Shown here in pieces: positions 647 to 18,955 of a stretch of 64,000 bases of DNA. This DNA is from Parcubacteria group bacterium (GTDB lineage: Bacteria; Patescibacteriota; Minisyncoccia; Moranbacterales; UBA2206). The notes beneath the pieces were generated by a model. That model was not told the origin of the DNA, did no database searches, and saw nothing but the letters and a program-made list of their open reading frames with translations. The stretch spans positions 165,057-229,056 of the forward strand of contig JBAZUU010000001.1 in assembly GCA_041661275.1 (NCBI GenBank). The letters run 5' to 3'. Every line of letters starts with the position of its first letter. The first letter of the stretch is position 1. Both the position numbers and the translations under genes were made by a program.

Positions 647-1372
647 ATGCTCATTTCTACTCTCAAACAAATAGGTCTCACTGAAAACCAGGCTAAAATA
701 TATCTGGCTTGTTTGGAATTGGGCGAATCCTCTGTAAAAGACATCGCTCAAAAAGCAGGGATTAAGAGAACTACTATATATGATTTTATCGACGAGATGT
801 TAAATAGCGGAATTTTAGAGCAAACCGTCCGCAGCAAAAAGAAAAGATATATCGCCACTCCGCCGGAAGAACTGAAATTACTTATCAGAAAAAGAGAAGC
901 CCTGCTTAACCAGATACTTCCGCAATTATCTTCTCTGGATAAATCAAGCCAAGGCAAACCAAGAATCCAATTTTACAGTGGCGCGGATGGTCTGAAAAAG
1001 GTTTACGAAGATTTATTAAATTACAAAAATATTATTGTTTATGGCTGGGCGTCGGAAGATATTCCTGAATTATTTGGGAAAGAATGGACTTTTAACTATG
1101 TGCATATGCGCGTAAAAAGAAATATTGAGGAATGGATCATTTATCCCCGAAGTAAAACAGGCGAGGAATATAAAAAACACGATGAGGAACATAAAAGAAA
1201 ATCGAAAGTAGTCGATCCAAAAAAATATAGGTTGGAAATTGAGATTAATATATATAAAAACAAAATTGCTATGACGTCAGCCAAGGATGAGGTCGGCATC
1301 ATCATCGAATCCACACCGATCGCCAACACTTGGAAAAAAATATTTGAAATGTGTTGGGATAGTTTGAAATAA
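647..1372 (+). CDS. TrmB-family HTH transcriptional regulator
   Basis: N-terminal winged-HTH motif LTENQAKIYLACLELGESSVKDIAQKAGIKRTTIYDFIDEMLNSGIL is typical of PF01978 TrmB. It is a paralog of the 10818..11558 gene. Confidence 0.7.
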   Translation: MLISTLKQIGLTENQAKIYLACLELGESSVKDIAQKAGIKRTTIYDFIDEMLNSGILEQTVRSKKKRYIATPPEELKLLIRKREALLNQILPQLSSLDKSSQGKPRIQFYSGADGLKKVYEDLLNYKNIIVYGWASEDIPELFGKEWTFNYVHMRVKRNIEEWIIYPRSKTGEEYKKHDEEHKRKSKVVDPKKYRLEIEINIYKNKIAMTSAKDEVGIIIESTPIANTWKKIFEMCWDSLK

Positions 1373-1458: not shown

Positions 1459-1512
1459 ACCCTCTCCTGTCCCGCCAAGGCGGGACATCCTCTCCCAAAG
1501 GGAGAGGAGGAA
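1459..1512. repeat. 54-bp multi-hairpin palindromic element, family 2, intergenic copy
   Basis: ccctctcct / gtcccgcc-aa-ggcgggac / cctctccc-aaa-gggagagg. Its reverse complement is near-identical to 8929-8979. Confidence 0.7.
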
Positions 1513-1531: not shown

Positions 1532-2065
1532 ATGTCAGGCCACTCACATTTTGCCGGAATAAAACACCGGAAAGGGATAAACGACTCCAAGCGCGCCAGG
1601 ATTTTTACGAAGTTAGCCAAGCCAATTACGATTGCCGCGCAGGAAGGTGGCGGAAATCCTGCTACGAACTTTAAATTAAGGATGGCCATTGATAAGGCGC
1701 GCGAGTTCAATATGCCCAAAGATAATATTGATCGGGCGATAAAAAGAGGAACAGGAGAATTAAAAGGAGAACAAATCCAGGAAATCATTTATGAAGTATA
1801 TGGTCCGGGCGGAATAATGATAATAATAAAAACCCTGACGGATAACAAAAACCGGACGGTTAGCGAGATAAAGACAATTCTCAATAAATTCGGTGGAAAA
1901 TTAGGCGGGTCAGGCAGCGTAATGTGGAATTTTCGGTTGGAAAACATGGAATACAAGCCGCAAAATACCATGGAAGTTGACGAAAATATAAAATCCCAAT
2001 ATGAAAAATTGTTGGAAGCTTTGGATGAACAAGACGATGTAGACGAGATTTATGACAATTTATAA
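1532..2065 (+). CDS. yebC: YebC/PmpR-family protein, shortened to 177 aa
   Basis: MSGHSHFAGIKHRKG...RTV...GGKLG matches the YebC/TACO1 N-terminal and central domains. About 65 aa of the usual third domain are missing. Conserved yebC-ruvC synteny. Confidence 0.8.
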   Translation: MSGHSHFAGIKHRKGINDSKRARIFTKLAKPITIAAQEGGGNPATNFKLRMAIDKAREFNMPKDNIDRAIKRGTGELKGEQIQEIIYEVYGPGGIMIIIKTLTDNKNRTVSEIKTILNKFGGKLGGSGSVMWNFRLENMEYKPQNTMEVDENIKSQYEKLLEALDEQDDVDEIYDNL

Positions 2066-2775: not shown

Positions 2776-2789
2776 AATTGGTAATAATA

Positions 2790-2927
2790 ATTAATCTAGA
2801 GAATTTTATAATAATCTGTAATTTTAAATTTTTAATTTGAAATTTTTATTAAATTTTTAATTCTAAAATTTAGAAATTTAAAATTGATTAAAAATTAAAA
2901 ATTATAAATTAAAAATTTCTTAATATT
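2790..2927. repeat. AT-rich tract built from AAATTTTTAATT / AATTAAAAATT motifs
   Basis: Reiterated 11-12-mers and their reverse complements lie directly upstream of the ATG at 2928. Similar tracts are at 45848-45941 and 46314-46359. Confidence 0.5.
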
Positions 2928-3602
2928 ATGTATTATATCAATGAAATCGGCACTTATGCCAGTCCTATCGTCGGGTTCTTCTTGGCCGACGGCGTGCCCT
3001 ATGAAACTATCAAGCTAATATTATTCCTGCCGGTGATCGCCACGGTCATCGCCTTTTTGCGACAAGTAGTAGGCATCAAGGCCTTTGGTATTTATACCCC
3101 ACTTCTAATTACTTTTGCCTTCCTAGCGACCAATGGACTCAAATATGGCATCGCTATTTTTGTTTCTGTCATTATTATTGGGATGCTCATGCGCTTCATT
3201 TTGAAGCCTTTTCGCCTGCTCTATCTCCCGCGTGTGGCCATTATGCTCACGGTAGTGGCTGTTTTAATTTTGGGCATACTCACTTTTGGCGGCAACATGA
3301 AAAGAACGGGGCTGGCTTCTGTTTCTATTTTCCCTATTCTTATCATGATAACTCTCGTTGAAAAATTCATCACAGTGCAAATCGAAAAAGGAAACAAGGA
3401 AGCACTATATCTCGCCGCGGAAACATTGATCATTTCTGTGGCTGGATTCTACGCTGCCAACCTGACATTCCTCATAAAAATAATTATCACGGCTCCCTGG
3501 GTCATCCTCCTGACCATTCCCATAAACATACTTCTGGGCAAATGGACGGGCTTGCGTATAAGTGAATATTGGAGGTTCAAAGAAATTATAAAAAAAATGT
3601 AA
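2928..3602 (+). CDS. 7-transmembrane protein of the ATP-grasp/retropepsin-associated type
   Basis: 224 aa with about seven hydrophobic helices. Sits directly upstream of, and 4 bp from, the ATP-grasp gene. Confidence 0.45.
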   Translation: MYYINEIGTYASPIVGFFLADGVPYETIKLILFLPVIATVIAFLRQVVGIKAFGIYTPLLITFAFLATNGLKYGIAIFVSVIIIGMLMRFILKPFRLLYLPRVAIMLTVVAVLILGILTFGGNMKRTGLASVSIFPILIMITLVEKFITVQIEKGNKEALYLAAETLIISVAGFYAANLTFLIKIIITAPWVILLTIPINILLGKWTGLRISEYWRFKEIIKKM

Positions 3603-3605
3603 CTA

Positions 3606-5006
3606 ATGTTTGATTTTATAAGAAAAAGTAAAAAAATCCTTGGCATGAATTCCAGAAATCTGGAGTATATTCGGCCGTTCAATTTGAAAAAAAGTCGCCG
3701 GCTAGCCGATGATAAGCTTCTTTCCAAAAGAGTATTAAAGAAAAATGACCTGCCTGTTCCCGCTCTTATCACTAAGATAAAAAACGTTGAAGAACTAGAA
3801 AGTTTTGATTGGCAGACGCTTCCCGGCAGTTTTGCCTTGAAACCTAATCGCGGTTTTGGCGGTGAAGGAATTATCGTAGTTTATGGGAAGAAGAAAAATA
3901 GGGACGACGCCTGGATAAAAGCGGACAGCAGCATAATTACCATTTCTGATCTAAAAACTCACATTAGGAATATCCTAGACGGATCATTTTCACTGGCTGG
4001 AACACCCGATATCGCTTTTTTTGAAGAACGATTGAAGCTCCTAAAATTATTCAAACCTTATGCCTACAAAGGAATCCCCGATATCCGTCTTATCATTTTT
4101 AATAAAGTTCCCGTCATGGCTATGCTCCGCGTCCCAACCAAGGAATCTCACGGAAAAGCCAACCTCCAGCAAGGTGCTATCGGCGTTGGAATAGACCTAG
4201 CTTCCGGCATAACCACTACGGCTGTCCAGGGGAAAAATAAAATTATTGACTATGTCCCGGGAACACGCATGCTTTTATCCGGGATAAAAATTCCCTATTG
4301 GAAAGATATTCTTGACCTGGCTGTCCGCGCCCAAGAAATTTCCGGTCTTGGTTTTTTGGGTTCTGATATTGCGATTGATAAAGAGCGCGGACCAGTAATC
4401 GTAGAGCTTAATGCCCGACCCGGACTTTCTATTCAAATTGCCAACCTCACCGGCCTTAAGGATAGATTGGAAAGAGTAAGAGATATGAAAATAAAGACAG
4501 CTAAACGCGGAATAACGCTCGGCATGAATCTTTTTGGAGGAGAGGTGGAAGAAGAAGTGGAAGAGATTTCTGGACGCAAAGTTATCGGAATAGCCCAGAC
4601 CGTAAAACTTATCGGCAAAAAAGGAAAAGAACTTGAAATTGAAGCTAAGATAGATACTGGAGCAGGCTACTCCTCTATCGACACAGAACTGGCCAAGGAG
4701 TTAGGTTTTGCCGGCGCCCTCGAAGAGTTTGAAAAAATAATGCAAGATGACGATCAGATAAGACACTTGGGGAAAAGTGAGCGTGAAGAAATATTCAGAG
4801 CCATCCCCGATTTAGCTGATACAATAATAGTAAATTCCTCCCACGGGACCAGCTACAGACCGATGATCCGACTATCTATGATCTTAGGCGGAGTGGAAAT
4901 TTTTACTAAAGTTTCCGTGATTGACCGCTCTATCCTTAAAAAGCCCGTCATTATTGGGCGAAAGAATTTGGGTAAATTTTTAATTGACGTAAATAAACTT
5001 CAATGA
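3606..5006 (+). CDS. RimK-like ATP-grasp peptide ligase fused to a C-terminal retropepsin-like domain (RimB/PF05618-like, AKIDTGA motif)
   Basis: N-terminal 300 aa have an ATP-grasp fold (FALKPNRGFGGEGI, LRLIIF, VELNARPG). The C-terminus carries EAKIDTGAGYSSID, the clan-AA aspartyl protease signature. Confidence 0.65.
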   Translation: MFDFIRKSKKILGMNSRNLEYIRPFNLKKSRRLADDKLLSKRVLKKNDLPVPALITKIKNVEELESFDWQTLPGSFALKPNRGFGGEGIIVVYGKKKNRDDAWIKADSSIITISDLKTHIRNILDGSFSLAGTPDIAFFEERLKLLKLFKPYAYKGIPDIRLIIFNKVPVMAMLRVPTKESHGKANLQQGAIGVGIDLASGITTTAVQGKNKIIDYVPGTRMLLSGIKIPYWKDILDLAVRAQEISGLGFLGSDIAIDKERGPVIVELNARPGLSIQIANLTGLKDRLERVRDMKIKTAKRGITLGMNLFGGEVEEEVEEISGRKVIGIAQTVKLIGKKGKELEIEAKIDTGAGYSSIDTELAKELGFAGALEEFEKIMQDDDQIRHLGKSEREEIFRAIPDLADTIIVNSSHGTSYRPMIRLSMILGGVEIFTKVSVIDRSILKKPVIIGRKNLGKFLIDVNKLQ

Positions 5007-5959
5007 AAAAAGTAATGATCTTGTTCGGCAAAAGTGACTGGAAAAGCGCTAAGCCGTTTAGTAATAAAGATTACCAATATTCCTACGAATTTTTCTATAC
5101 CCTCTGTAAAAAGAATGGCATACAGATGTACCGAGCCTCTTATGAATGGTATGACTATGAAAAAGCTGTTTTTAAACATGCTTGGATATATGAAGGAGAG
5201 GGAGCCAAATGGAAAAAGGTTGGCAACATCAAGCCCGATCTTATCTACGACAAAACTAAAGCCAGAATGGAAACATATTATAAAAAGGAACTTATCGGTG
5301 AATATTACCCATTCATCAACGACCAGATTTTTACCCGGCTGATTGACGACAAACTGACTACCAGTTTGATATTTGAAAAATGGTCTAAAAAAAGCTGGAT
5401 AATAAATTCCAAAGAAGATCTGAAAATTATTTTGCCCAAAATTAAATCGAGCAAAATCGTATTAAAGCCGCTGTGCGAAAGTGGCGGAAAGGACGTGGAG
5501 ATACTGAGTAAAAAAGAAGCTCTCGAAAAATCATCCATTAAAAAAAATTTCATAGTCCAGGAATTCATAGATTCATCCAGTGGTGTTCCTAGAGTAAGTC
5601 GTGGCATGCACGACTTGAGGTTGGTATTTGTAAATGACAAAATAATTTACGCCTATATCCGCGAACCAAAGAAAGGGAGTTACCTGGCCAATCTGGCGCA
5701 GGGAGGAAAGCTCATTATCGTACCAAACAAAAAAATACCTAAATCCGTGAATCCCATTATCAAGCAGGCTAATGAGGCATTTATCACCTTTGATCCGCGA
5801 GTATATTCCCTGGATCTTATGTTTGACCGGTTCGGCCGCCCCTGGATAGTGGAACTCAACTCAATGCCCGGACTATTTTTTACTCCCGAAGAAAAATCAT
5901 CAATGTTGCAGATGTACGCGGAACTTCTAAAAGTTTTCAAGAAAAAACTTGGGATCTAG
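5003..5959 (+). CDS. second ATP-grasp family ligase
   Basis: KIVLKPLCESGGKDVEIL ... IVELNSMPGL matches ATP-grasp motifs. Overlaps the previous gene by 4 bp. Confidence 0.6.
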   Translation: MKKVMILFGKSDWKSAKPFSNKDYQYSYEFFYTLCKKNGIQMYRASYEWYDYEKAVFKHAWIYEGEGAKWKKVGNIKPDLIYDKTKARMETYYKKELIGEYYPFINDQIFTRLIDDKLTTSLIFEKWSKKSWIINSKEDLKIILPKIKSSKIVLKPLCESGGKDVEILSKKEALEKSSIKKNFIVQEFIDSSSGVPRVSRGMHDLRLVFVNDKIIYAYIREPKKGSYLANLAQGGKLIIVPNKKIPKSVNPIIKQANEAFITFDPRVYSLDLMFDRFGRPWIVELNSMPGLFFTPEEKSSMLQMYAELLKVFKKKLGI

Positions 5960-6011: not shown

Positions 6012-8558
6012 ATGGCTTACGTTTATTCGCCCAAAAAATCTACTCCTGATTATGCGCGGAAGAAGGTTAATTGGAAAAAGGCTTGGAAATATTTAGGTTA
6101 TCTGTGTATCGCCGGTTTTTTTGTTGTTGCCGGCGTTTTTTTGTTTTTCTATAAAGATCTCCCCAGTCCCGGAAAGCTAAACGACCGTTTTGTGGCCGAG
6201 TCGACCAAAATTTATGACCGCACGGGGACGCATCTTCTCTATGACGTTCACGGCGAAGAAAAAAGGACGCAGATCCCCTATTCGGAAATGCCAGACACCA
6301 TCCGCTACGCCACCATCTCTCTTGAAGATCAGGGATTTTATACTCATGGCGGCGTTGACCTCAAAGGTATCGCTCGCGCGGCCTTGAAAGACGTTTTGCA
6401 CCTGGGAGCAGCGCAAGGAGGATCGACTATTACCCAACAACTCATCAAGCAATCAATGTTGAGCTCGGAGCGAACGATAACCAGAAAAATAAAGGAGGTT
6501 ATATTGGCAATTGAGCTGGAACAAAAATTTTCCAAAGATGAAATTCTGGCTATGTATCTCAATCAGATCCCTTATGGTTCCAATTCCTATGGCATTGAAG
6601 CTGCCGCTCAAACTTTTTTTGGCAAACACGCCAAAGACTTGAATCTAGCCGAATCAGCCCTCCTTGCTTCACTTCCTAACGCGCCTACATATTATTCCCC
6701 CTATGGTTCTCATCCGGAAGCCCTGAAAGCTCGCCAGGAATTAGCTCTCAATCACATGGCCGAATCAGGATATATCACCAAAGAACAAGCTGATGAAGCA
6801 AAAAACGTGGACATTATGTCTGAGTTGCAGCCCAATCGAGAAAACATCAGCGCTCCACATTTTGTGATGTATATCAAAGAATATTTAGAAAAAAAATACG
6901 GGCAAGACACGGTGGAACAAGGTGGACTGAAAGTCTATACCACTCTTGATTGGGACAAACAAATGGCCGCAGAGCAGGCAGTGAAAGATGGGGCGGAAAG
7001 AAACAAAAAATACAAAGCGGAAAATGCTTCTCTTGTTGCTATGGATCCAAAGACCGGGCAAATTCTGGCCATGGTCGGATCAAAAGATTATTTTGATACA
7101 ACAATTGACGGACAAGTGAATGTGGCTATCCGTGACCGACAACCTGGCTCGTCTTTCAAACCATTTGTCTATCTGACTGCTTTTCAAAAAGGCTTCACTC
7201 CGGAAACTATGATCTGGGACGTGGACACTAATTTCAGCACTGATTCCGGAAAAGATTATAATCCAAAAAATTATGACGGAAAAAATAGAGGACCGCTTGA
7301 GATGAAAGATGCTCTCGCCATGTCCCTTAACGTGCCGGCGGTAGAAACACTATATCTCGCCGGCGTCAAAAATTCAGTGGATACTGCCCATAAAATGGGC
7401 ATCACCACTCTCAATCAACCTGATCGTTATGGATTATCTTTGGTCTTGGGCGGAGGAGAAGTAAAACTGCTTGATCATGTTAATGCCTATGCCACACTGG
7501 CAACCGGCGGGGTTCACCACGACAAAGTATCTATTCTGAAAATAGAAGACGGTAAGGGAAGCATATTGGAACAATATAAACCCAATGATGGCAATCGAGT
7601 GATCGATGAAAAATATGTTTCCATGCTCGATTATATTATGTCTACCAATTCCTTGCGCGCTCCGGTTTTTGGAGAAAATAATCCTCTGAAGTTTGACTCC
7701 CGCCCGGTAGCCGCCAAAACTGGAACGACTAACGAATGGCGCGATGGTTGGACGATGGGCTACACGCCATCTTTAGCCGTTGGCGTTTGGGCAGGTAATA
7801 ATAATAATTCCGTTATGGCGCAAGGCGCAGATGGAGTTTATGTTGCCGCGCCAATTTTCCGAGCCTTTATGGATACTGTGCTCAAAAATTATTCCGTAGA
7901 AAAATTCCCGGAATACAAACAAGAAGACACTGGTAAAGATATTTTGGATGGCAAATTTTCTTCCGGAAAAGATGAAATAGAGGTTTGTGAGATCAAAAAA
8001 GATGAATATTGTTTGGCCAACGACACTTGCCCGGATGGCACAAAAGATAAAAAGAAATTTGCCCAAACACATAGCATTCTCTACTACGTCAATAAAGATG
8101 ATCCACGCGGAGACGCACCAAAAGATCCCCAAAAAGATCCGCAATTTGCCAATTGGGAAAAAGCAGTCAAGTCTTATGTCAAAGATCACAAGAAAGATTT
8201 TGGCGGCGATGAAGCGCCGACTGATCAGTGCAAAGCAAGTGATTTTGGAGACTCCGGTTCGTCAGATAGCAGCAGTGTAAAAATCAAAACTACCGTTTCT
8301 ACTCCAAAAGATGGCGACACCATCACTTCTTCACCATTTACCATTTCAGCTCAAGCTGTTTCCGGACACGCCATAACTTACATAACAATTAACATCGATG
8401 GCACAGACGTGTCGGTGGCCAATTCTGATTCAATTTCATATTCCTATACAGTTCCGGATGACAAAAAAAATGCCACACTCAATATCAAAGTAACGGCAGT
8501 TGATAAAAATGATAAGACTGATTCCGATAAGTTAACAGTGAAAATGAATATTCCTTAA
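6012..8558 (+). CDS. class A penicillin-binding protein (PBP1A: GT51 transglycosylase + transpeptidase) with a C-terminal Ig-like extension
   Basis: GT51 motifs EDQGFYTHGGVD and QGGSTITQQL. Transpeptidase SxxK (SSFKP), SxN-region and KTGT motifs. The C-terminal 180 aa are Thr/Ser/Asp-rich and beta-rich. Confidence 0.9.
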   Translation: MAYVYSPKKSTPDYARKKVNWKKAWKYLGYLCIAGFFVVAGVFLFFYKDLPSPGKLNDRFVAESTKIYDRTGTHLLYDVHGEEKRTQIPYSEMPDTIRYATISLEDQGFYTHGGVDLKGIARAALKDVLHLGAAQGGSTITQQLIKQSMLSSERTITRKIKEVILAIELEQKFSKDEILAMYLNQIPYGSNSYGIEAAAQTFFGKHAKDLNLAESALLASLPNAPTYYSPYGSHPEALKARQELALNHMAESGYITKEQADEAKNVDIMSELQPNRENISAPHFVMYIKEYLEKKYGQDTVEQGGLKVYTTLDWDKQMAAEQAVKDGAERNKKYKAENASLVAMDPKTGQILAMVGSKDYFDTTIDGQVNVAIRDRQPGSSFKPFVYLTAFQKGFTPETMIWDVDTNFSTDSGKDYNPKNYDGKNRGPLEMKDALAMSLNVPAVETLYLAGVKNSVDTAHKMGITTLNQPDRYGLSLVLGGGEVKLLDHVNAYATLATGGVHHDKVSILKIEDGKGSILEQYKPNDGNRVIDEKYVSMLDYIMSTNSLRAPVFGENNPLKFDSRPVAAKTGTTNEWRDGWTMGYTPSLAVGVWAGNNNNSVMAQGADGVYVAAPIFRAFMDTVLKNYSVEKFPEYKQEDTGKDILDGKFSSGKDEIEVCEIKKDEYCLANDTCPDGTKDKKKFAQTHSILYYVNKDDPRGDAPKDPQKDPQFANWEKAVKSYVKDHKKDFGGDEAPTDQCKASDFGDSGSSDSSSVKIKTTVSTPKDGDTITSSPFTISAQAVSGHAITYITINIDGTDVSVANSDSISYSYTVPDDKKNATLNIKVTAVDKNDKTDSDKLTVKMNIP

Positions 8559-8564
8559 TAAAAC

Positions 8565-8702
8565 CGTCATCCCGAGTGAAGGCTCAATTCTTATTGAGCC
8601 TGAGTCGAGGGATCTACTAATTGCTATTGCAAGTGCTAATATTTAGTAGATTCTTCGACTTCATTCCCCCGTCAAGACGGGGTCATTCCGCTCAGAATGA
8701 CG
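8565..8702. repeat. MITE-like palindromic element, family 1 copy B
   Basis: ccgtcatcccgagtg ... cgctcagaatgacg. Inner gagtcgagggatct ... agattcttcgact. Begins 7 bp after the PBP1A stop and supplies the first in-frame ATG (8697) of the uppP ORF. Confidence 0.75.
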
Positions 8703-9533
8703 AATGCCATTTTTATGACCTTATTCCACGCCATCATCCTCGGCCTTATCCAGGGTTTCGGAGAATTTCTCCCCATCTCTTCTTCCGGGCATCTCATTCT
8801 TGCGCCCTGGCTTTTGAATTTCCCCGATCCAGGGCTGTCCTTTGATGTGGCGTTGCATTTCGGAACATTGATTGCTGTCGTTTTATATTTTTGGAAAGAC
8901 TTTCTGGAAATAATATGCATAGCGTTTTCCTCCTCTCCCTTTGGGAGAGGATGTCGCGTCTTCGCGACAGGAGAGGGTTCAAAATATAACAAAAATATTT
9001 TCTGGCTCCTCGTCATCGCCACCATCCCCGGCGCTCTGTTCGGATTTCTTCTCGAAAGCAAAGCGGAAACAATTTTCCGAAACCCTTTGTTAATAGCAGG
9101 CACATTATCTATTGTGGGGCTAATATTATATCTAGCCGACAAATATGCTTCACATAAAAGAAATATTAACGAGCTAACAAAAAAAGATGCCACGCTTATC
9201 GGCCTCTCCCAAGCTTTCGCCATTATTCCTGGCGTTTCTCGCGCCGGCGCAACTATTACGACTGGATTATTTTTAGGCCTTGATCGCGTGTCCGCCGCCC
9301 GATTTTCATTTCTCCTTTCCGCCCCAATCATTCTTGGCGCAACCCTTGTTAAGATAAAATATATCGCTGCCGCTGGCACACTGGAAATTGTCGCCATCCT
9401 CACCGCCGCCCTCTCCGGCTACTTCGCCATCAGTTGGATGCTAAAATTCATCGAGCGTGTCAGTTACAAAGTTTTCTTTTGGTATAGATTGGCATTGGCA
9501 GTCATCATTGTCCTGGTCTGGTTTTTAAAATAA
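8697..9533 (+). CDS. uppP: undecaprenyl-diphosphate phosphatase UppP/BacA
   Basis: GFGEFLPISSSGH and PGVSRAGATITTGL are BacA signatures. An alternative start is at 8715. Contains an in-frame 51-bp repeat insert (see 8929-8979). Confidence 0.85.
   Translation: MTNAIFMTLFHAIILGLIQGFGEFLPISSSGHLILAPWLLNFPDPGLSFDVALHFGTLIAVVLYFWKDFLEIICIAFSSSPFGRGCRVFATGEGSKYNKNIFWLLVIATIPGALFGFLLESKAETIFRNPLLIAGTLSIVGLILYLADKYASHKRNINELTKKDATLIGLSQAFAIIPGVSRAGATITTGLFLGLDRVSAARFSFLLSAPIILGATLVKIKYIAAAGTLEIVAILTAALSGYFAISWMLKFIERVSYKVFFWYRLALAVIIVLVWFLK
8929..8979. repeat. family 2 multi-hairpin element inserted in-frame within uppP
   Basis: cctcctctccc-tttg-ggagagg / gtcgcg-tctt-cgcgac / aggagaggg. It is the reverse complement of 1459-1512 except for a compensatory change in the middle hairpin. 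Length 51 bp (17 codons), encoding about SSSPFGRGCRVFATGEGS in a loop where E. coli BacA is about 12 aa shorter. Confidence 0.65.
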
Positions 9534-9575
9534 AGACTGATTGAAATAAGTAGTAGTTTATGCTAGGATAATTTC

Positions 9576-9881
9576 ATGAGCAAAGAGGAAATAAAAAAAG
9601 CCCTTAAGGAAGCCATTGAAGTCGATCCGAATAGAGAGGCTATTTTAAAAGTGGCCTTATTTGGTTCTCACGTTTACGGCTCGCCGCGACCCGATTCTGA
9701 TGTGGATATTTTAATTGAATTCTCTCCTGAATATTCTATCGGCTTTTTCAAATTTTTTGACACGCAATATAATTTTGAAAAATTCATAGGCAAAAAGGTT
9801 GATTTGCTTACTCCGGAAGACATAAGTCATTTCTTCAGAAATGAAGTTTTGGCTCGTGCGGAAACAATTTATGAAAGATAA
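9576..9881 (+). CDS. MntA-type nucleotidyltransferase antitoxin
   Basis: The LFGSHVYGSPRPDSDVDILIEF motif is the polymerase-beta-like NTase signature. Confidence 0.8.
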   Translation: MSKEEIKKALKEAIEVDPNREAILKVALFGSHVYGSPRPDSDVDILIEFSPEYSIGFFKFFDTQYNFEKFIGKKVDLLTPEDISHFFRNEVLARAETIYER

Positions 9882-10203
9882 TAAATTTTACATTGGGCAC
9901 ATTGCCGAAGCTATTTCCTCTATAGAAGAATACCTTAATAATGTTGATTTTCTGTCATTTTCCCAAAATAAAATGCTCTTTGATGCGGTAGTAAGAGAAT
10001 TGGAAATAATAGGCGAGGCATCAAACAACATAGGAGATTCATTTCAGAATGAATACCCCGACATTCCATGGAGAAAAGTCATTGGAATGAGAAATAAAAT
10101 TACTCACGAATACTTCGCCGTAAATAAAAAAGTCGTCTGGGACACATGCAAGGACGACCTGCCTGAACTAAAAACTATAATTAGCTCCATCTTGGCTCAA
10201 TAA
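9871..10203 (+). CDS. HepT-type (DUF86) toxin
   Basis: RELEIIGEASNNI ... IPWRKVIGMRNKITHEY is the HepT RX4HXY-type motif. Overlaps mntA by 11 bp. Confidence 0.8.
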   Translation: MKDNKFYIGHIAEAISSIEEYLNNVDFLSFSQNKMLFDAVVRELEIIGEASNNIGDSFQNEYPDIPWRKVIGMRNKITHEYFAVNKKVVWDTCKDDLPELKTIISSILAQ

Positions 10204-10225
10204 AAGTAGGAACACCAGACAAGCA

Positions 10226-10248
10226 AAGGCCGCAAAAGCCTTTTTTTA
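10226..10248 (+). terminator. rho-independent terminator after hepT
   Basis: ggc-cgcaaaa-gcc hairpin followed by T7. Confidence 0.5.
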
Positions 10249-10270
10249 TTTTCGTAAATTCGTAGACAAT

Positions 10271-10301
10271 AAAAAACCTGCCCGAATGATTTCGAGCAGG
10301 T
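10271..10301 (-). terminator. rho-independent terminator after the 10310..10567 gene
   Basis: Minus-strand RNA ccugcucgaa-auca-uucgggcagg forms a 10-bp stem followed by U6. Confidence 0.6.
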
Positions 10302-10309
10302 GCAAGTGG

Positions 10310-10567
10310 TTAAAGAACCGAGATTAGAATGGCCCATTTATGCCATTCTTCTTTTATTATGTAGGGGGTTAACTCTACCCAATTCCCTCCCCACTGACCA
10401 AACGCTCTTGCTATTGTCATTTCTTCGCCAGGGTATCGCTTCAGAAAATCCACTACCGAAACCCAGGTGGACTCTCCTGGCCTAAGCTCCGACGCAGGTT
10501 TCACGTCGGTATTCTCTATTTCATTCCAATAGCGTTCGGTCTTTCCGTCACCAACTTTAAATCTCAT
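10310..10567 (-). CDS. hypothetical small protein (85 aa)
   Basis: ORF with its own terminator. No recognizable motif. Confidence 0.4.
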   Translation of the reverse strand: MRFKVGDGKTERYWNEIENTDVKPASELRPGESTWVSVVDFLKRYPGEEMTIARAFGQWGGNWVELTPYIIKEEWHKWAILISVL

Positions 10568-10756
10568 TGTAATCTCCTTATTCAGGTTAGAATTAACTCA
10601 GATCATTCACTTTTCAAACAACTCTCCAATTCCATCATAACTACCCATTATACCTCAAAATCACCAACTTATCAATAGTTGTTGTAATTTATAACTATAA
10701 TCATTCTTGATTTCCGCCTGGTATTCTGCTATTTTATGGCTTTATTATGCTGTATA

Positions 10757-10815
10757 TTGACATAATTACAAAGGCTTGCTATAATAGCATTATCTGTTGT
10801 CATAAATATCGACAA
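10757..10815 (+). promoter_or_regulatory. sigma70-type promoter (TTGACA-17-TATAAT) plus operator candidate upstream of the second trmB-like gene
   Basis: TTGACA at 10757-10762 and TATAAT at 10780-10785 with a 17-nt spacer. TGTCATAAATATCGACA (10799-10815) shares AAATATCGACA with the 620-634 site. ATG at 10818. Confidence 0.5.
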
Positions 10816-10817
10816 TT

Positions 10818-11558
10818 ATGGAAATTCAGAACACCCTCAAAAAACTAGGTCTCGACGATGACGAAATAGCTGTCTATACGGCCACCTTGTCATTGGGACC
10901 GAGCCTAGTCACAAGAATTGCTAAGGAATCAGGCGTTAAACGCACTACGGTATATTTAGTGGCGAAATCTTTAATGGAGAAAGGGTTGCTGGGAGAATAT
11001 AAAACTCGCCACGGAATGCATTTGTCCGCTCAATCCCCTGATTATCTTTTGACCAAGATTGAGGAACAAAAAAAAGAAGTGGAGGAAATTATTCCCCAAC
11101 TCAAAGCGCTGACCAAAAAAGAAGCGCATCGCCCGCAAGTGAAATATTTTGAAGGGAAAGAAGGATATTTTACGGTGGCCGAAGATACACTGGAAAAACA
11201 TGCTACAGAAATTTTGTGGTTGGGAAATCCAAAAGAATTATATAGCATCATCGGGAAGAAGTGGGATGATGAATATTATGTGCCCAAAAGAATGGAGCGG
11301 AAAATAAAAATGAAGGCCTTGCTTTTTGAAGATGATTGGTCAAGAGATATAAAAAAGACTGATGAAAATTTTTTGAGGCAAACTAAATTTCTGCCAAAAG
11401 ATTTTCCCTTCCATTCAACGCAACTAATTTACCAAAACAAGGTGGCCTATTTCAGCTCGCAAAAAGAACTGATCTGTGTCCTCATTGAAAGCGCTGATCT
11501 GGCCGCCATGGAACGGGCCAAATTTGAAATGTTGTGGAAAAATGCTATTATAAACTAA
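10818..11558 (+). CDS. TrmB-family HTH transcriptional regulator (paralog)
   Basis: LGLDDDEIAVYTATLSLGPSLVTRIAKESGVKRTTVYLVAKSLMEKGLL. Same architecture as 647..1372. Confidence 0.7.
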   Translation: MEIQNTLKKLGLDDDEIAVYTATLSLGPSLVTRIAKESGVKRTTVYLVAKSLMEKGLLGEYKTRHGMHLSAQSPDYLLTKIEEQKKEVEEIIPQLKALTKKEAHRPQVKYFEGKEGYFTVAEDTLEKHATEILWLGNPKELYSIIGKKWDDEYYVPKRMERKIKMKALLFEDDWSRDIKKTDENFLRQTKFLPKDFPFHSTQLIYQNKVAYFSSQKELICVLIESADLAAMERAKFEMLWKNAIIN

Positions 11559-11562
11559 ACAT

Positions 11563-11970
11563 ATGGAAACATTTCACGAAAATATAGCAACTCCGGAAAG
11601 ACAACACTCGGGCGTGGAATTAACAGCCAAACAAAAAGAGGAGGGCTTGATATTTGGCCTGACAAAATTGGACAACATTAAAGACTCTCTCCAAAAATAC
11701 CCATCAGCACTTTTGGAAGAATACGGCCTGGATTATATCCAGGAAAAATGCCAGGATTTGATCGCTCTAATCAAAAAAGACCCTGCCTTATTTAAAAACA
11801 TTGATCTTCAACATCAAATTGGAAACTTTGAACCGTGCGTTGCAATGCTGGATCATGTTATGAAACATCCATATAAGGAAAATATGAGAGAGAGCCTGAA
11901 AAAGGAAGTGTTTAATCTAAGCTTACAATTAGATGAATTGCTTTCCCTGGAAAAAGAAACTATCCATTAG
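11563..11970 (+). CDS. hypothetical protein (135 aa), likely co-transcribed with trmB-like gene
   Basis: Starts 5 bp after the trmB paralog stop. Predicted helical and acidic. Confidence 0.4.
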   Translation: METFHENIATPERQHSGVELTAKQKEEGLIFGLTKLDNIKDSLQKYPSALLEEYGLDYIQEKCQDLIALIKKDPALFKNIDLQHQIGNFEPCVAMLDHVMKHPYKENMRESLKKEVFNLSLQLDELLSLEKETIH

Positions 11971-12017
11971 ATAACAAAAGGAACCCCTCTGGTTCTTTTT
12001 TGATTGATAAACATTTT

Positions 12018-12356
12018 CTATTTTTCCTGTGAAATAATTTTTGAAACATTCTCGGCAAGTTCGGGAATGTTTTTTCGACAAGTTTCCCAAACCGTTTCCA
12101 CAATAACTCCGAAGTATTCATGTATTAGAACGTTTCTCATATCAATCATATCCCGCCATGGTATCTCCGGATGCGCTTCGCGGAATTCGGAGCTGACATT
12201 ATTAGCCGCTTCGCCAATTATTTCCAATTCCCGGATAATCGCGCTTACCATCATTCTATTTTTATCAAACTCGGCACGATCAGCGCCACTGCTAAAATTA
12301 ATGATATTATTAACAGAATCATTAATATGCTTCAGATAAGTTAGATCATTTCTCAT
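12018..12356 (-). CDS. HepT-type (DUF86) toxin, second copy
   Basis: RELEIIGEAANNV ... IPWRDMIDMRNVLIHEY. Confidence 0.8.
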   Translation of the reverse strand: MRNDLTYLKHINDSVNNIINFSSGADRAEFDKNRMMVSAIIRELEIIGEAANNVSSEFREAHPEIPWRDMIDMRNVLIHEYFGVIVETVWETCRKNIPELAENVSKIISQEK

Positions 12357-12651
12357 AAAAAGTTTCGGCTTTAGCTAAAACCTCGTCTCGAAAATATTTA
12401 CTCAAACCTTCGGGAGTCAGAAGATCAATTTTTTTGCCACAATAATCTGAAAAATTCCGTTGAATCTGGACATATTCAAACAACCCTATCCTGGCATTAG
12501 GCCTAAATTCTACAAGCACATCAATATCGCTATCCGGATGCGGTTCCCCATAGGCATAAGAGCCAAAAATTGACGCCTTAATAATATCCTCTTTATGAGG
12601 ATCTTTTTCTATAGCCTCCACTAATTTTTTCTTTATTTCTTCTTTACTCAT
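12346..12651 (-). CDS. MntA-type nucleotidyltransferase antitoxin, second copy
   Basis: IFGSYAYGEPHPDSDIDVLVEF. About 60% identical to the 9576 copy. Confidence 0.8.
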   Translation of the reverse strand: MSKEEIKKKLVEAIEKDPHKEDIIKASIFGSYAYGEPHPDSDIDVLVEFRPNARIGLFEYVQIQRNFSDYCGKKIDLLTPEGLSKYFRDEVLAKAETFYEK

Positions 12652-12697
12652 AACCCTAATCTAACATAAAGTAATACAATTTTCAACTTAAAACTTT

Positions 12698-12979
12698 TTA
12701 TTTCGTCCTAATTTTCAAAACCGCGCCTTCACCCAATTCTTCATTCATCTTGCGCATTATTTTTTCCTTATTAAGCCAAAGCTCGCTGGCCCAAGCAGGC
12801 GATTCGCAGCGAACTACCAAAACTTTTTTTCCAAAATAGTCCACTTGGAATTTTGACGCGCCGATCAGGCCAAATTCTTTTTTGATTATTTTGTTAAAAA
12901 TATAAAAGACGTCCTTATTGTCAAAAGAAAACTTCCTTAATTCTTTTCGCTTATCAAAAAGATTTTTGAGAGATCTCAT
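12698..12979 (-). CDS. DUF721/DciA-like protein
   Basis: About 93 aa with a C-terminal SPAWASELWLNKEKIMRKMNEELG motif typical of DUF721. Lies close to dnaN/dnaA. Confidence 0.5.
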   Translation of the reverse strand: MRSLKNLFDKRKELRKFSFDNKDVFYIFNKIIKKEFGLIGASKFQVDYFGKKVLVVRCESPAWASELWLNKEKIMRKMNEELGEGAVLKIRTK

Positions 12980-13776
12980 TGTTTTGCAAACCCGTCTAAA
13001 TATTTAGGCAATTCTAAAATCCATTTGGCTTGCTCCGGATAGAATAGGAATCTTTCCACGTCTTTAGCCGCTTGTTTTAAATCCAACCCGGAAATAATAG
13101 TTATTAATTCTGCTACCAATTCTTGGCGATTATTAATATTAATATTTTTTTCTTGCAAAATCTCATAATTCGGTTCGATGTCTTTTTGCGCCAAAAACCA
13201 AACGATATCATAGAAATCTCGCCCCTTTTGATATGGCCGCAGTTTCAAAGCGATAATTTTTTGGGCGAAGAGAGTTGGCAGCGTGTTAATTAACACGGGA
13301 AAACGCTCATTAAAACTATCAATAAATTTTGTTTCAGTAGTAGTAGCTTTATAAGGAGTATGGTCAATTTCAAACTTAATTAAAAATTTTTCGTCTTTCA
13401 TAGAACTCAGCTCGAATTCCCTCAGCACATCTTTAAATTTAATAAAAAGAATGTAGATATTTTCCGTGGTCTTGGTCCTTGCATCAATGGCAAAACCGAG
13501 AAGACTCAGGCTCTTGGTCAAATCTTTTTCCAGGGCATCGATGTTGAAGCCGTCTTTTTTAACCAAGTCGAAATCAAGATCCTCTGAAAATCGTGGAATT
13601 TCATGGATAAATCGAAGGCTCGTGCCACCCAAAAAAGAGACTGCGTCATTATAATCGCTTGATGACAGCGCTTTTAGGATTTGGGTTTGCAAATATTCTC
13701 GAAGAACGTCTTTTTCCCGCCAGGGAATATTCTTGCTCTCACAATAGTTTTTAAAATATTTTTTATCCGGCAACAT
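12976..13776 (-). CDS. AbiEii/AbiGii-family nucleotidyltransferase toxin (DUF1814)
   Basis: The LGGTSLRFIHEIPRFSEDLDFDL motif is the AbiEii NTase signature. Confidence 0.7.
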   Translation of the reverse strand: MLPDKKYFKNYCESKNIPWREKDVLREYLQTQILKALSSSDYNDAVSFLGGTSLRFIHEIPRFSEDLDFDLVKKDGFNIDALEKDLTKSLSLLGFAIDARTKTTENIYILFIKFKDVLREFELSSMKDEKFLIKFEIDHTPYKATTTETKFIDSFNERFPVLINTLPTLFAQKIIALKLRPYQKGRDFYDIVWFLAQKDIEPNYEILQEKNININNRQELVAELITIISGLDLKQAAKDVERFLFYPEQAKWILELPKYLDGFAKQ

Positions 13777-15663: not shown

Positions 15664-15954
15664 ATAATTATATTTAGTATCTTATTAATTTATATAAATT
15701 ACTATTAATATTAGTAAAAGGAAAATGGGGGGATAAGTGTATGTTGGGGCTTATATAAAGGATATTTTCTGTGTATAAGTATGGGATAACCTCGTAATTA
15801 GTAGATAGGGAGAGGGTGAGGGGAAAAATGATTTATTGTATTTTAATAACCCTATCCCAGTTTAGTATTAGTCTTAGTGGGGGAATATTATTAGGTAATA
15901 AACAAGTTAATATACAACCTACACACAGCTTATCCCCCTTATATTAAAATAACC
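15664..15954. promoter_or_regulatory. dnaA-dnaN intergenic region with TTATCC-core DnaA-box-like motifs and an AT-rich tract (possible second oriC part/DUE)
   Basis: tgtgtataa (one mismatch), gggataagtg, gggataacc and cttatcccc motifs. A 55-bp AT-rich tract lies at 15664-15720. Confidence 0.35.
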
Positions 15955-17637: not shown

Positions 17638-17775
17638 ATGAGCCAGACATATCAGCCGAAGAGCAAAAGAAGAAAAAGAAGGCATGGCTTCAGAAAAAGA
17701 AGCCAGACGTCAGGCGGTCAGAACGTTTTGAAAAAAAGAAGAAGAAAGGGTCGGAAAAAACTAACCACAGTGTAA
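17638..17775 (+). CDS. rpmH: 50S ribosomal protein L34
   Basis: 45-aa [48 protein letters not shown]. Not in the ORF track because it is under 60 aa. Confidence 0.85.
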
Positions 17776-17787
17776 AAAGCGCAAAAA

Positions 17788-18147: not shown

Positions 18148-18152
18148 TTATT

Positions 18153-18929: not shown

Positions 18930-18955
18930 AAAAGATAATCGTTTAAATTAAACAT

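What the first reader, a model, noticed from the sequence alone, without database searches (positions are those of the whole stretch)
2928..5959. 7TM protein + RimK-like ATP-grasp fused to a retropepsin-like domain + second ATP-grasp next to peptidoglycan genes
The 3606..5006 protein joins an ATP-grasp ligase with a C-terminal AKIDTGA retropepsin-like domain of the RimB/PF05618 type. It is preceded by a 7TM protein and followed by a second ATP-grasp enzyme. This matches the poorly characterised 7TM / ATP-grasp / clan-AA protease association predicted to build and trim peptide tags or peptide-derived metabolites. It sits next to PBP1A and uppP and is preceded by an unusual AT-rich repeat tract (2790-2927). 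Substrate and function are unknown.
Basis: partly seen in the sequence, partly recalled or inferred. Interest (0 to 1): 0.6.

Follow-up and report, generated by a model that had tools for sequence, protein, structure and literature searches.

The report
Compact Rlo-like peptide ligase–protease operon

Summary
2928-3602 encodes a 7-helix membrane protein (PF14402). 3606-5006 encodes an RloC-type ATP-grasp ligase (PF14397; TIGR02291-like) fused to a RimB/RloA-type retropepsin domain (PF05618) with an intact AKIDTGA motif. 5003-5959 encodes a RimK-like ATP-grasp. PBP1A and UppP follow.

The closest known system is the rloABC operon of Pseudomonas (2025). It has the same three modules, but here the protease is fused to the C-terminus of the ligase and so is cytoplasmic. 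The membrane protein also lacks the outer inactive-transglutaminase domain.

In 81 non-redundant related loci, all from Patescibacteria-type genomes:
- the 7TM gene lies directly upstream in 76 of 76 testable cases;
- an extra ATP-grasp follows in 54 of 70;
- PBP1A lies downstream in 24 of 54.

The residues that bind polyglutamate in RloA are conserved here.

Most likely mechanism (inferred, not shown): ATP-dependent synthesis of Glu-rich peptide at the membrane, trimmed by the fused protease, with a role in the cell envelope.

I rate it a new variant of a known kind, of moderate interest. Related fusions replace the protease with a MATCAP-like carboxypeptidase.

The parts
2776..2927 (.). Extreme AT-rich spacer between ruvC and the 7TM gene (7.9% GC, degenerate AATTTAA/ATTAAAA repeats). 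Probably the promoter region of the operon.
   Evidence: It is the lowest-GC 150-nt stretch in the window. TRF finds periods of 7/8/14. There is no Rfam match. Similar tracts occur at the same position in L012, L016 and L031, but not in most relatives.
2928..3602 (+). 7TM membrane protein: the RloB-like core without an extracellular domain. Predicted N-terminus outside and C-terminus inside. The invariant cytoplasmic C-terminal motif is G-L-R210-x-S-E213-Y-x-R216-F217.
   Evidence: PF14402 scores 117.6 bits. NF052267 RloB matches only model positions 312-507 of 508. The AF2 model shows 7 TM helices plus a C-terminal helix. Conservation is shown. The gene is adjacent to the fusion gene in 76 of 76 loci. 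A natural 7TM+ATP-grasp fusion exists, P0270.
3606..5006 (+). Fusion protein (466 aa): RloC-type ATP-grasp ligase, acidic linker helix and RimB/RloA-type retropepsin domain. It has no signal peptide or TM segment and no cysteine in the protease domain, so it is cytoplasmic.
3654..4484 (+). ATP-grasp ligase domain (aa 17-293). The K79-P80 and G-rich loop, D159-x-R161, D254 and E267-x-N269 catalytic and Mg-binding motifs are invariant.
   Evidence: PF14397 scores 231 bits and TIGR02291 286.6 bits. Invariant columns are listed. The best solved relatives are RimK, cyanophycin synthetase and ArgX/LysX. It is 43% identical to the RloC of a canonical rloABC-type operon.
4533..4574 (+). Conserved acidic linker FGGEVEEEVEEISG (aa 310-323). 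Predicted as an amphipathic helix, but with low model confidence.
   Evidence: Invariant positions are F310 G311 G312 E313 E315 E316 E319 S322 G323. pLDDT is below 50 over 312-322. Acidity tracks an intact DTGA motif: 62% against 8% of sequences have at least 5 acidic residues out of 14.
4575..5003 (+). Retropepsin-like (RimB/RloA-type, PF05618) domain. The catalytic D350-T-G-A is at nt 4653-4664 and IIGR is at aa 448-452. K348, R418 and R441 correspond to the RloA polyglutamate-binding residues K46, R114 and R137.
   Evidence: PF05618 scores 30.4 bits against a cut-off of 27. Profile matches to PDB: 9g58 E=1.6e-11, 9g59 5e-10, 2pma 1e-6, Ddi1 3e-3. The residue mapping comes from the alignment and the residues named in the paper. 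Invariance is shown.
5003..5959 (+). Second ATP-grasp ligase (318 aa), RimK-like, translationally coupled to the fusion gene by an ATGA overlap. It fills an accessory slot that varies in copy number and subfamily among relatives.
   Evidence: PF08443 scores 45.6 bits. A family profile hits RimK structures at E=6.5e-19 to 1e-16, well ahead of ArgX (4e-7), GshB (3e-5) and TTLL6/7 (6e-4). Variability is shown.
6012..8558 (+). Class A penicillin-binding protein (PBP1A), co-oriented and 52 nt downstream. This is context and may be co-transcribed.
   Evidence: Transgly and Transpeptidase domains. PBP1A lies downstream on the same strand in 24 of 54 relatives. No terminator-like site was found between 3602 and 6012 on the + strand.
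8697..9533 (+). Undecaprenyl-diphosphate phosphatase (UppP/BacA). Context only.
   Evidence: PF02673 scores 264.6 bits. Among the fetched loci it is adjacent only here and in L017.

Best explanation
This is a compact, rearranged member of the Rlo-type (RloB/RloC/RloA) peptide-ligase/peptidase systems, in a form specific to Patescibacteria.

Shown:
- A 7TM protein homologous to the membrane core of RloB.
- An ATP-grasp homologous to RloC, with a complete catalytic set.
- A RimB/RloA-type retropepsin domain fused to the ligase's C-terminus, with an intact DTGA motif.
- A RimK-like second ligase.
- All are tightly packed or overlapping, and the 7TM-fusion pairing is invariant in relatives.

Inferred mechanism:
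1. The 7TM protein (N-terminus out, C-terminus in) holds the ligase at the inner face of the membrane through its invariant cytoplasmic C-terminal helix.
2. The RloC-like ligase, helped by the RimK-like paralog, uses ATP to join L-glutamate into alpha-linked oligo- or poly-Glu. The product is either free or built on the C-terminal carboxylate of an unidentified acceptor. One enzyme may initiate and the other elongate.
3. The retropepsin domain must dimerise to form its active site, so it also dimerises the fusion protein. It cuts runs of Glu, which sets chain length or turnover. It may also stimulate the ligase, as RimB stimulates RimK.
4. The product is handled at the membrane by the 7TM protein, either exported or presented, and acts on the cell envelope.

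The main difference from Pseudomonas Rlo is that cleavage occurs on the cytoplasmic side, as in RimK/RimB, because the protease is fused to the ligase.
For: Homology to a canonical rloA-rloB-rloC operon: its RloC is 43% identical to the window's ligase domain, and the operon has the same three modules.

Published genetics place RloA, RloB and RloC in one pathway. Deleting rloB or rloC suppresses the defects of the triple rloA mutant. RloA and RimB cleave runs of at least 8 Glu, and RimB stimulates poly-alpha-Glu synthesis by RimK (PMC12239564; PMC11957791).

The RloA polyE-coordinating residues K46, R114 and R137 map to K348, R418 and R441. These are invariant in close relatives and at least 90% conserved in distant ones.

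Both ligases have RimK as their best solved relative.

Co-occurrence: the 7TM gene is adjacent in 76 of 76 loci, and an extra ATP-grasp follows in 54 of 70.

Natural fusions link the parts: 7TM+ATP-grasp (P0270), and ATP-grasp+retropepsin+second ATP-grasp (P0145, P0148).

In other lineages the retropepsin degenerates while a MATCAP-like metallocarboxypeptidase is fused in. That family's eukaryotic member trims an acidic tubulin tail. This fits a ligase-plus-trimming-peptidase logic.

Topology is supported by the positive-inside distribution read from the sequence, the AF2 helices, and the variable N-terminal extracellular domains (PKD) in relatives.

The envelope link rests on PBP1A lying 52 nt downstream here and downstream in 24 of 54 relatives, even when 0-4 accessory genes intervene. 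Rlo mutants also show cell-shape and beta-lactam phenotypes.

The fusion protein is at least as conserved as the neighbouring housekeeping genes: 65% mean identity against 57-60%.
Against: - No substrate or product has been shown for any RloC-type ligase, including in Pseudomonas. Glutamate specificity is inferred from relatives and from the protease.
- TIGR02291 scores below its curated cut-off, and RimK-family TIGR00768 scores far below its cut-off for both ligases.
- The 7TM model has no structural relative in the PDB, so export, anchoring and sensing cannot be told apart.
- PBP1A adjacency co-varies with ruvC/yebC adjacency and is absent in Microgenomates-type relatives. It could therefore be inherited gene order rather than functional linkage.
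- Multiple divergent accessory ligases (up to 4) suggest a heteropeptide rather than a pure Glu homopolymer.
- A cytoplasmic protease means the Pseudomonas model, where the product is degraded outside the membrane, cannot transfer directly.
Confidence: 0.6

Rival explanations
1. The 7TM protein is a sensor, not an exporter. It detects an envelope or osmotic signal through its outward-facing side (bare here; PKD or inactive transglutaminase in relatives) and switches the cytoplasmic ligase/protease pair. That pair builds and degrades a cytoplasmic Glu-rich peptide pool or tag. Nothing crosses the membrane.
For: The protease is cytoplasmic here, having no signal peptide and being fused to the ligase. 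The N-terminal extracellular modules vary while the cytoplasmic tail is invariant. The 7TM model shows no transporter-like fold match. A canonical rlo operon sits beside MscS and a glutamate symporter.
Against: In Pseudomonas the protease is periplasmic and its loss is suppressed by deleting rloB or rloC. This implies that the product reaches the periplasm. Conserved charged or polar residues inside the TM helices (E145, Q151, E165, R45, R89, R102) would also suit a translocation path.
Confidence: 0.2
2. The ligases assemble a short defined heteropeptide in an L-amino-acid-ligase-like cascade. The protease processes it and it is released through the 7TM protein, for example for interaction with a host cell by these presumed episymbionts.
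For: The accessory ATP-grasp genes vary in number (0-4) and subfamily between lineages. Separate MATCAP-like peptidase genes occur in some clusters. The fold is similar to other peptide-forming ATP-grasps, including PsnB and cyanophycin synthetase.
Against: The core pair is very conserved (65% mean identity) and sits among housekeeping genes near oriC, unlike typical variable secondary-metabolite loci. The polyE-binding residues of the protease are conserved.
Confidence: 0.12
3. The ligases modify peptidoglycan precursors by adding amino acids to the stem peptide or cross-bridge. This would explain the position upstream of PBP1A and UppP.
For: PBP1A lies 52 nt downstream and UppP follows. PBP1A is downstream in 24 of 54 relatives. 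ATP-grasp ligases that build peptidoglycan side chains are known from established knowledge (Ddl, D-aspartate ligase). D-Ala-D-Ala ligases are among the fold matches.
Against: The core 7TM + fusion pair persists without PBP1A in more than half of relatives. Sequence profiles favour RimK over Ddl by many orders of magnitude. A polyE-type endopeptidase and a 7TM partner have no role in known stem-peptide synthesis.
Confidence: 0.08
4. It is a RimK/RimB-type system that polyglutamylates ribosomal protein S6 or another cytosolic protein, and the membrane protein is incidental.
For: The ligase and retropepsin are cytoplasmic together, as in RimK/RimB and the RimBK hybrid. The second ligase is RimK-like.
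Against: The 7TM gene is adjacent in 76 of 76 loci and is sometimes fused to the ligase. Both ligases score far below the RimK-family cut-off of 143.4 bits, at 49 and 53 bits. The domain order is opposite to RimBK. The S6 C-terminus of this genome was not examined.
Confidence: 0.06
5. It is a graspetide/RiPP locus: an ATP-grasp macrocyclase with a leader protease and an exporter.
For: Graspetide loci have been reported in the Candidate Phyla Radiation. PsnB appears among the fold matches.
Against: There is no room for a precursor gene inside the cluster, because the gaps are 3 nt, a 4-nt overlap and 52 nt. The AT-rich spacer is non-coding. The ligases belong to the RloC and RimK clades.
Confidence: 0.02

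Closest known systems
rloABC operon of Pseudomonas aeruginosa/fluorescens (Lormand et al., mBio 2025, PMC12239564). A canonical example was fetched here as L087.
   Same: It has the same three homologous modules in one operon: a PF05618 retropepsin, a PF14402 7TM protein and a PF14397/TIGR02291-type ATP-grasp (43% identical). The DTGA motif and the polyE-coordinating Lys/Arg residues are conserved. There is a circumstantial link to the cell wall.
   Different: Here the retropepsin is fused to the C-terminus of the ligase and is cytoplasmic, with no signal peptide and no disulfide cysteines. The 7TM protein lacks the periplasmic inactive-transglutaminase domain (relatives have none, or a PKD domain). 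Gene order is B-C::A rather than A-B-C. An extra RimK-like ligase is present. The host is Patescibacteria, whereas RloB was reported as 96% Proteobacteria.
RimK/RimB and the RimBK hybrid of Desulfotalea psychrophila (Little/Malone laboratory, JBC 2025, PMC11957791)
   Same: A cytoplasmic ATP-grasp glutamate ligase is paired, or fused, with a retropepsin-like protease that is specific for polyglutamate. The stand-alone second ligase here is most similar to RimK.
   Different: The fused ligase is RloC-type, not RimK-type. The domain order is ligase then protease, the reverse of RimBK, so this is an independent fusion. It has an obligatory 7TM partner. There is no evidence for S6 as the substrate.
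Retropepsins (clan AA: HIV protease, Ddi1, APRc)
   Same: It shares the D-T-G-A catalytic motif, the hydrophobic-hydrophobic-Gly-Arg motif and the predicted fold. An active site is expected to form only in a dimer.
   Different: It has a long helical insertion of about 50 residues in place of the flap, a basic substrate groove, and is fused to a ligase.
Tubulin tyrosine ligase/TTLL with MATCAP (the eukaryotic 'tubulin code' writer and eraser)
   Same: An ATP-grasp ligase acting on acidic C-terminal tails is paired with a trimming peptidase. Relatives of the window protein are fused to a PF08014 MATCAP-like domain.
   Different: The window protein itself has no MATCAP domain. The similarity is in logic and in relatives only.

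Membership tests
Rlo system (RloA/RloB/RloC) | RloC: cytoplasmic ATP-grasp of the PF14397 / TIGR02291 family | tested here: inconclusive
   PF14397 scores 231 bits, well above its cut-off of 31.4. TIGR02291 scores 286.6 bits, below its curated cut-off of 314.2. The domain is 43% identical to the RloC of a canonical operon. It is a homolog, but not an equivalog by NCBI's threshold.
Rlo system (RloA/RloB/RloC) | RloB: inactive transglutaminase domain fused to 7 TM helices | tested here: not met
   The 7TM part is present (PF14402, 117.6 bits). The transglutaminase part is absent: NF052267 scores 88.6 bits against a cut-off of 900 and matches only model positions 312-507, and the protein is only 224 aa.
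Rlo system (RloA/RloB/RloC) | RloA: secreted retropepsin-like peptidase (signal peptide, disulfide pair) | tested here: not met
   The domain is present (PF05618 30.4 bits; 9g58 E=1.6e-11). However, it is fused behind a cytoplasmic ligase, with no signal peptide and no cysteine (sequence). NF052262-4 score 25-29 bits against cut-offs of 210-280.
Rlo system (RloA/RloB/RloC) | Conserved basic residues that coordinate polyglutamate (RloA K46, R114, R137) plus catalytic D48 | tested here: met
   They map to K348, R418, R441 and D350 through the alignment to 9g58 and the residues listed in the paper. These are invariant in A1 and at least 90% conserved in A2.
Rlo system (RloA/RloB/RloC) | The three modules are encoded together | tested here: met
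   The genes have a 3-nt gap or overlap. The 7TM gene is adjacent to the fusion gene in 76 of 76 loci.
Rlo system (RloA/RloB/RloC) | Role in hypo-osmotic tolerance, cell shape and beta-lactam resistance | not testable with these tools
   This needs genetics in a cultivable host. Only PBP1A adjacency is available as circumstantial evidence.
RimK / RimB (and RimBK hybrid) | RimK-family alpha-L-glutamate ligase (TIGR00768 cut-off 143.4) | tested here: not met
   The fusion protein scores 49 bits and the second ligase 53.1 bits. The second ligase's family profile does hit RimK structures best, at E=6.5e-19, so it is RimK-like but not a member by the curated cut-off.
RimK / RimB (and RimBK hybrid) | RimBK architecture: RimB domain N-terminal to RimK | tested here: not met
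   Here the order is ligase (aa 17-293) then protease (aa 324-466). RimBK has RimB at residues 1-163.
RimK / RimB (and RimBK hybrid) | Substrate is ribosomal protein S6 with a C-terminal Glu | not tested
   rpsF was not located in the window.
Retropepsin-like aspartic peptidase (clan AA) | D-T/S-G-A catalytic motif and the C-terminal hydrophobic-hydrophobic-Gly motif | tested here: met
   AKIDTGA is at aa 347-353 and VIIGRK at 447-452. D350, T351, G352, A353, I449 and G451 are invariant.
Retropepsin-like aspartic peptidase (clan AA) | Retropepsin fold | tested here: met
   The AF2 model of the C-terminal domain mostly has pLDDT 80-90. Foldseek matches a phage acid protease (E=8e-10, TM 0.75, rmsd 2.4) and the STLV-1 protease and caulimovirus/badnavirus polyprotein or reverse-transcriptase entries at about 1e-4. 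The profile also hits Ddi1 at E=3e-3.
Retropepsin-like aspartic peptidase (clan AA) | Homodimer forms the active site; proteolytic activity | not testable with these tools
   No multimer prediction or assay was available.
Graspetide (RiPP) cluster | Precursor peptide gene next to the ATP-grasp | tested here: not met
   There is no coding space within the cluster.

The most novel reading that the evidence does not exclude
Patescibacteria use this near-origin operon, co-oriented with PBP1A, to make a defined-length anionic Glu-rich peptide. The fused protease cuts it to size in the cytoplasm. The 7TM protein then passes it outward to become part of, or to regulate, the cell wall. It would be a peptide counterpart of teichoic acids or periplasmic glucans. 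The fused ligase-protease would be the minimal form of the whole Rlo family, and its MATCAP-fused relatives would be bacterial forerunners of the tubulin-tail writer/eraser pair.
Probability: 0.15. Interest if true: 0.75.

Novelty: new variant of a known kind. Interest (0 to 1): 0.5.

Why it matters
What RloB and RloC make is an open question. The answer bears on antibiotic tolerance, biofilm formation and cell shape in Pseudomonas.

This Patescibacteria form packs ligase and protease into one soluble protein and reduces the membrane partner to its bare 7TM core. It is therefore a simple target for finding the product by biochemistry.

Three features argue that it does something basic for the envelope of these reduced-genome bacteria: strict conservation, placement among core genes near the replication origin, and recurrent adjacency to PBP1A.

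The related fusions to a MATCAP-like carboxypeptidase suggest that the 'ligase plus trimming peptidase on acidic tails' logic is old and modular.

Tried and rejected
- Foldseek of the whole fusion model against the PDB was swamped by ATP-grasp hits. The protease fold was recovered instead through a domain profile and the viral library.
- Rfam and tRNA scans found nothing in or near the AT-rich tract. The one sub-threshold hit (whalefall-1, 22.7 bits against 37) is treated as chance.
- I considered the AT-rich tract as a conserved element of the system and rejected it. Only 3 of about 78 relatives have a comparably AT-rich spacer.
- PADLOC found no defence-system match.
- The graspetide/RiPP reading was rejected for lack of a precursor gene.
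- Self-cleavage or pseudo-substrate binding at the acidic linker: I found only a correlation between linker acidity and an intact DTGA. It is confounded by phylogeny, and the linker has 6 Glu interrupted by Val, whereas RloA needs at least 8 consecutive Glu. This stays an idea, not a claim.
- Iyer et al. 2009 (amidoligase survey) could not be read.
- The record labels 'uncultured Bdellovibrionales/Gammaproteobacteria/Saccharibacteria' on TPA assemblies were not trusted. Those loci share 40-68% identity and gene order with Moranbacteria loci.

Full report
**Observation**

The + strand carries three tightly packed ORFs at exactly the reported coordinates: 2928-3602 (224 aa), 3606-5006 (466 aa) and 5003-5959 (318 aa). 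The spacing is 3 nt, then a 4-nt ATGA overlap, then 52 nt before the next gene. No terminator-like site lies on the + strand between the end of the first gene and PBP1A.

Pfam and NCBIfam give these results:
- Gene 1: PF14402 7TM_transglut, 117.6 bits. It matches only the C-terminal 7TM part of the RloB model NF052267.
- Gene 2: PF14397 ATPgrasp_ST, 231 bits, aa 17-292. TIGR02291 'alpha-L-glutamate ligase-like' scores 286.6 bits against a cut-off of 314.2. PF05618 scores 30.4 bits (cut-off 27) over aa 340-463, with weak RloA1-3 matches.
- Gene 3: RimK-like ATP-grasp, PF08443 45.6 bits.

The flanks are YebC, RuvC, PBP1A and UppP.

The spacer 2776-2927 has 7.9% GC, the lowest of any 150-nt stretch in the 64-kb window. 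It carries degenerate 7/8/14-nt repeats.

**The protease domain**

AKIDTGA lies at aa 347-353. In 30 close homologs D350, T351, G352, A353 and the retropepsin 'IIG' motif (I449, G451) are invariant.

A profile of the C-terminal domain hits the RloA crystal structures 9g58 (E=1.6e-11) and 9g59 (5e-10). It then hits the Legionella homolog 2pma (1e-6) and the Ddi1 retropepsin domain (3e-3).

The AlphaFold model has a mean pLDDT of 79, and the C-terminal domain is mostly 80-90. It matches a phage 'acid protease' at E=8e-10 with TM 0.75. It also matches the STLV-1 protease and caulimovirus/badnavirus polyprotein or reverse-transcriptase entries at about 1e-4.

The RloA paper names K46, R114 and R137 as conserved polyglutamate-coordinating residues, and D48 as catalytic. 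Through the alignment to 9g58 these map to K348, R418, R441 and D350. All are invariant in close relatives and at least 90% conserved in relatives down to 35% identity.

The domain has no cysteine, and the protein has no signal peptide or TM segment (sequence). The protease is therefore cytoplasmic like RimB, not secreted like RloA.

**The ligases**

The fused ATP-grasp keeps the K-P/Gly-rich loop, D-x-R and D...E-x-N motifs. Its best solved relatives are:
- by profile, RimK (2e-8) and cyanophycin synthetase (5e-8);
- by fold, ArgX/LysX, RimK, cyanophycin synthetase and Ddl.

No RloC-type structure has been solved.

The second ligase's family profile hits RimK at E=6.5e-19 to 1e-16. This is far ahead of ArgX, GshB and TTLL6/7.

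**The membrane protein**

AlphaFold predicts seven TM helices plus a C-terminal amphipathic helix. Counting Lys and Arg in the loops gives about 15 on one side and 4 on the other. This places the N-terminus outside and the C-terminus inside (read from the sequence).

The C-terminal G-L-R210-x-S-E213-Y-x-R216-F217 motif is invariant even in relatives of 26-40% identity. Relatives carry an N-terminal PKD domain or an unassigned extension in place of RloB's inactive transglutaminase domain. One representative fuses the 7TM C-terminus directly to the ligase (P0270). The fold has no match in the PDB.

**Relatives and co-occurrence**

The fusion protein is identical to a protein from a 'Parcubacteria group bacterium' MAG. 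It has thousands of homologs, and the best 120 are 68-82% identical and full length, mostly Moranbacteria.

A scan of species-representative genomes returned 597 relatives. The best 80 loci are all from Patescibacteria-type MAGs.

I built local HMMs and mapped the neighbourhoods. Among 81 non-redundant fusion loci:
- the 7TM gene is directly upstream on the same strand in 76 of 76 loci with enough upstream DNA;
- another ATP-grasp gene starts within 1.5 kb downstream in 54 of 70;
- PBP1A lies within 7 kb downstream on the same strand in 24 of 54;
- RuvC lies upstream in 33 of 67.

DTGA is intact in nearly all.

The third gene is a variable slot. It holds 0-4 ATP-grasp paralogs, true orthologs (61-69% identical) in only some loci and 26-41% identical paralogs in others. 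Some clusters add a stand-alone second retropepsin or MATCAP-like genes.

The fusion protein is conserved at least as well as its housekeeping neighbours. Mean identity is 65%, against 57-60% for YebC, RuvC and PBP1A.

PBP1A stays at the 3' end of the cluster whatever accessory genes intervene. However, it co-varies with ruvC adjacency and is missing in Microgenomates-type relatives. A functional link is therefore suggested, not shown.

**Wider architecture space**

Among the 150 best representatives of 50%-identity clusters:

| Architecture | Count |
|---|---|
| ligase + retropepsin | 50 |
| ligase + retropepsin + MATCAP-like (PF08014) | 36 |
| ligase + MATCAP-like | 15 |
| ligase alone | 46 |
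| ligase + retropepsin + extra ATP-grasp | 2 |
| 7TM + ligase | 1 |

In the MATCAP fusions the retropepsin has mostly lost DTG. One peptidase type has therefore replaced the other, which fits a conserved 'ligase plus trimming peptidase' logic.

A stand-alone relative (P0223, 43% identical) sits in a canonical operon: secreted-type RimB-like protein, inactive-transglutaminase-7TM protein, then ATP-grasp. A glutamate symporter, an AstE/AspA-like deacylase and MscS flank it.

**Comparison with what is known**

The closest system is rloABC (PMC12239564). Triple rloA mutants fail under hypo-osmotic stress and have shape, biofilm and beta-lactam defects, and deleting rloB or rloC rescues them. RloA cleaves at least 8 consecutive Glu. 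The product of RloB and RloC is unknown.

RimB cleaves polyGlu tails and stimulates poly-alpha-Glu synthesis by RimK. A RimB-RimK hybrid with the protease at the N-terminus exists and is proteolytically active (PMC11957791).

The window locus shares homologous parts with Rlo but fails two defining features. The RloB-like protein has no transglutaminase domain, and the protease is not secreted. It also has the opposite domain order to RimBK and a different ligase clade.

My full-text searches found no paper that describes this Patescibacteria form or the ATP-grasp-MATCAP fusions. This is absence within the held library only.

**Mechanism**

I commit to the following, at about 0.6 overall:
- It is a membrane-tethered Rlo-type module. 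The homology and the 7TM-fusion pairing are well supported.
- The ligases make Glu-rich alpha-peptide, probability about 0.5. This is inferred from the RimK-like relatives and the conserved polyE-binding groove.
- The fused, dimerising protease trims the product on the cytoplasmic side. This is inferred from the fusion and from RimB/RimK.
- The 7TM protein exports or presents the product with an effect on the envelope, probability about 0.35. This is inferred from the Pseudomonas genetics and PBP1A adjacency.

The rivals are a sensor role for the 7TM protein, a heteropeptide product, peptidoglycan-precursor modification, S6 modification and a RiPP locus. They are listed with their evidence in the rival explanations.

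**The acidic linker**

FGGEVEEEVEEISG is invariant in close relatives, predicted helical with low confidence, and more acidic where DTGA is intact. It may be a pseudo-substrate or a self-cleavage site. This is untested and weakly supported.

**The AT-rich tract**

It is real and extreme, and similar tracts occur at the same position in a few relatives (L012, L016, L031). It is absent from most relatives and matches no RNA family. The simplest reading is a promoter or curved-DNA spacer for the operon.

**Verdict**

The finding is real. This is a Patescibacteria-specific, rearranged variant of a system that was named only in 2025 and whose chemistry is still unknown. I rate it a new variant of a known kind, with interest 0.5.

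Noticed in passing
window 14506-19432: The replication-origin neighbourhood lies here: dnaN (14506-15663, -), dnaA (15955-17322, -), yidC (18153-18929, +) and jag/R3H (18956-19432, +). The operon is therefore about 10 kb from the likely oriC. In relatives PBP1A directly abuts DciA/dnaN/dnaA.
   Followed up: partly
window 8697-14392: Compared with relatives, about 6 kb is inserted between PBP1A and dnaN. It holds UppP, a MntA-like nucleotidyltransferase/HepT toxin-antitoxin pair (9576-10203), a TrmB-like regulator (10818-11558), an unassigned ORF (11563-11970) and an AbiEii/AbiEi pair (12976-14392).
   Followed up: partly
window 647-1372 and 10818-11558: Two TrmB-family regulator paralogs lie on either side of the operon region.
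   Followed up: no
window 1532-2065: YebC is only 177 aa here, against 237-245 aa in relatives. Its second Pfam domain matches only partially (profile positions 2-54 of 160). It may be a shortened or internally deleted copy.
   Followed up: no
window ~45767-46024: This is the second most AT-rich tract in the window, with a minimum of 12% GC at about 45841.
   Followed up: no
L045/L089 3414-5873, and representatives P0132, P0147, P0165: Proteins of about 790 aa fuse the same ATP-grasp to a degenerate retropepsin and a MATCAP-like (PF08014) metallocarboxypeptidase. Their clusters carry up to three more ATP-grasp genes and a second MATCAP-like gene. No paper in the held library mentions MATCAP together with ATP-grasp.
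   Followed up: partly
L087 2853-8592: A canonical rloA-rloB-rloC-type operon is followed by an AstE/AspA-like deacylase and an MscS channel, and is preceded by a glutamate symporter. This context fits glutamate and osmotic themes.
   Followed up: no
L010, L013, L020, L044 and other TPA_asm loci: Records titled 'uncultured Bdellovibrionales', 'Gammaproteobacteria' or 'Candidatus Saccharibacteria' share 40-68% identity and, for those with 62-68% identity, the same YebC-RuvC-7TM-fusion-PBP1A order as Moranbacteria loci. The taxonomic labels look unreliable.
   Followed up: no
L033 7119-7664, L035 4320-4802, L065 2831-3331: A stand-alone second PF05618 retropepsin gene directly follows the fusion gene. 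In L065 the fused copy has DTGL instead of DTGA, so the separate copy may supply the activity.
   Followed up: partly
BFVD hits to model me93b2d9c81a5: Phages encode small RimB-like 'acid protease' or 'ATP-dependent zinc protease' proteins and RimK-type ATP-grasps that match the two domains of the fusion protein.
   Followed up: no
window 1459-1510 (-): A sub-threshold Rfam match to whalefall-1 RNA scores 22.7 bits against a gathering score of 37 (E=0.035). It is probably chance.
   Followed up: no
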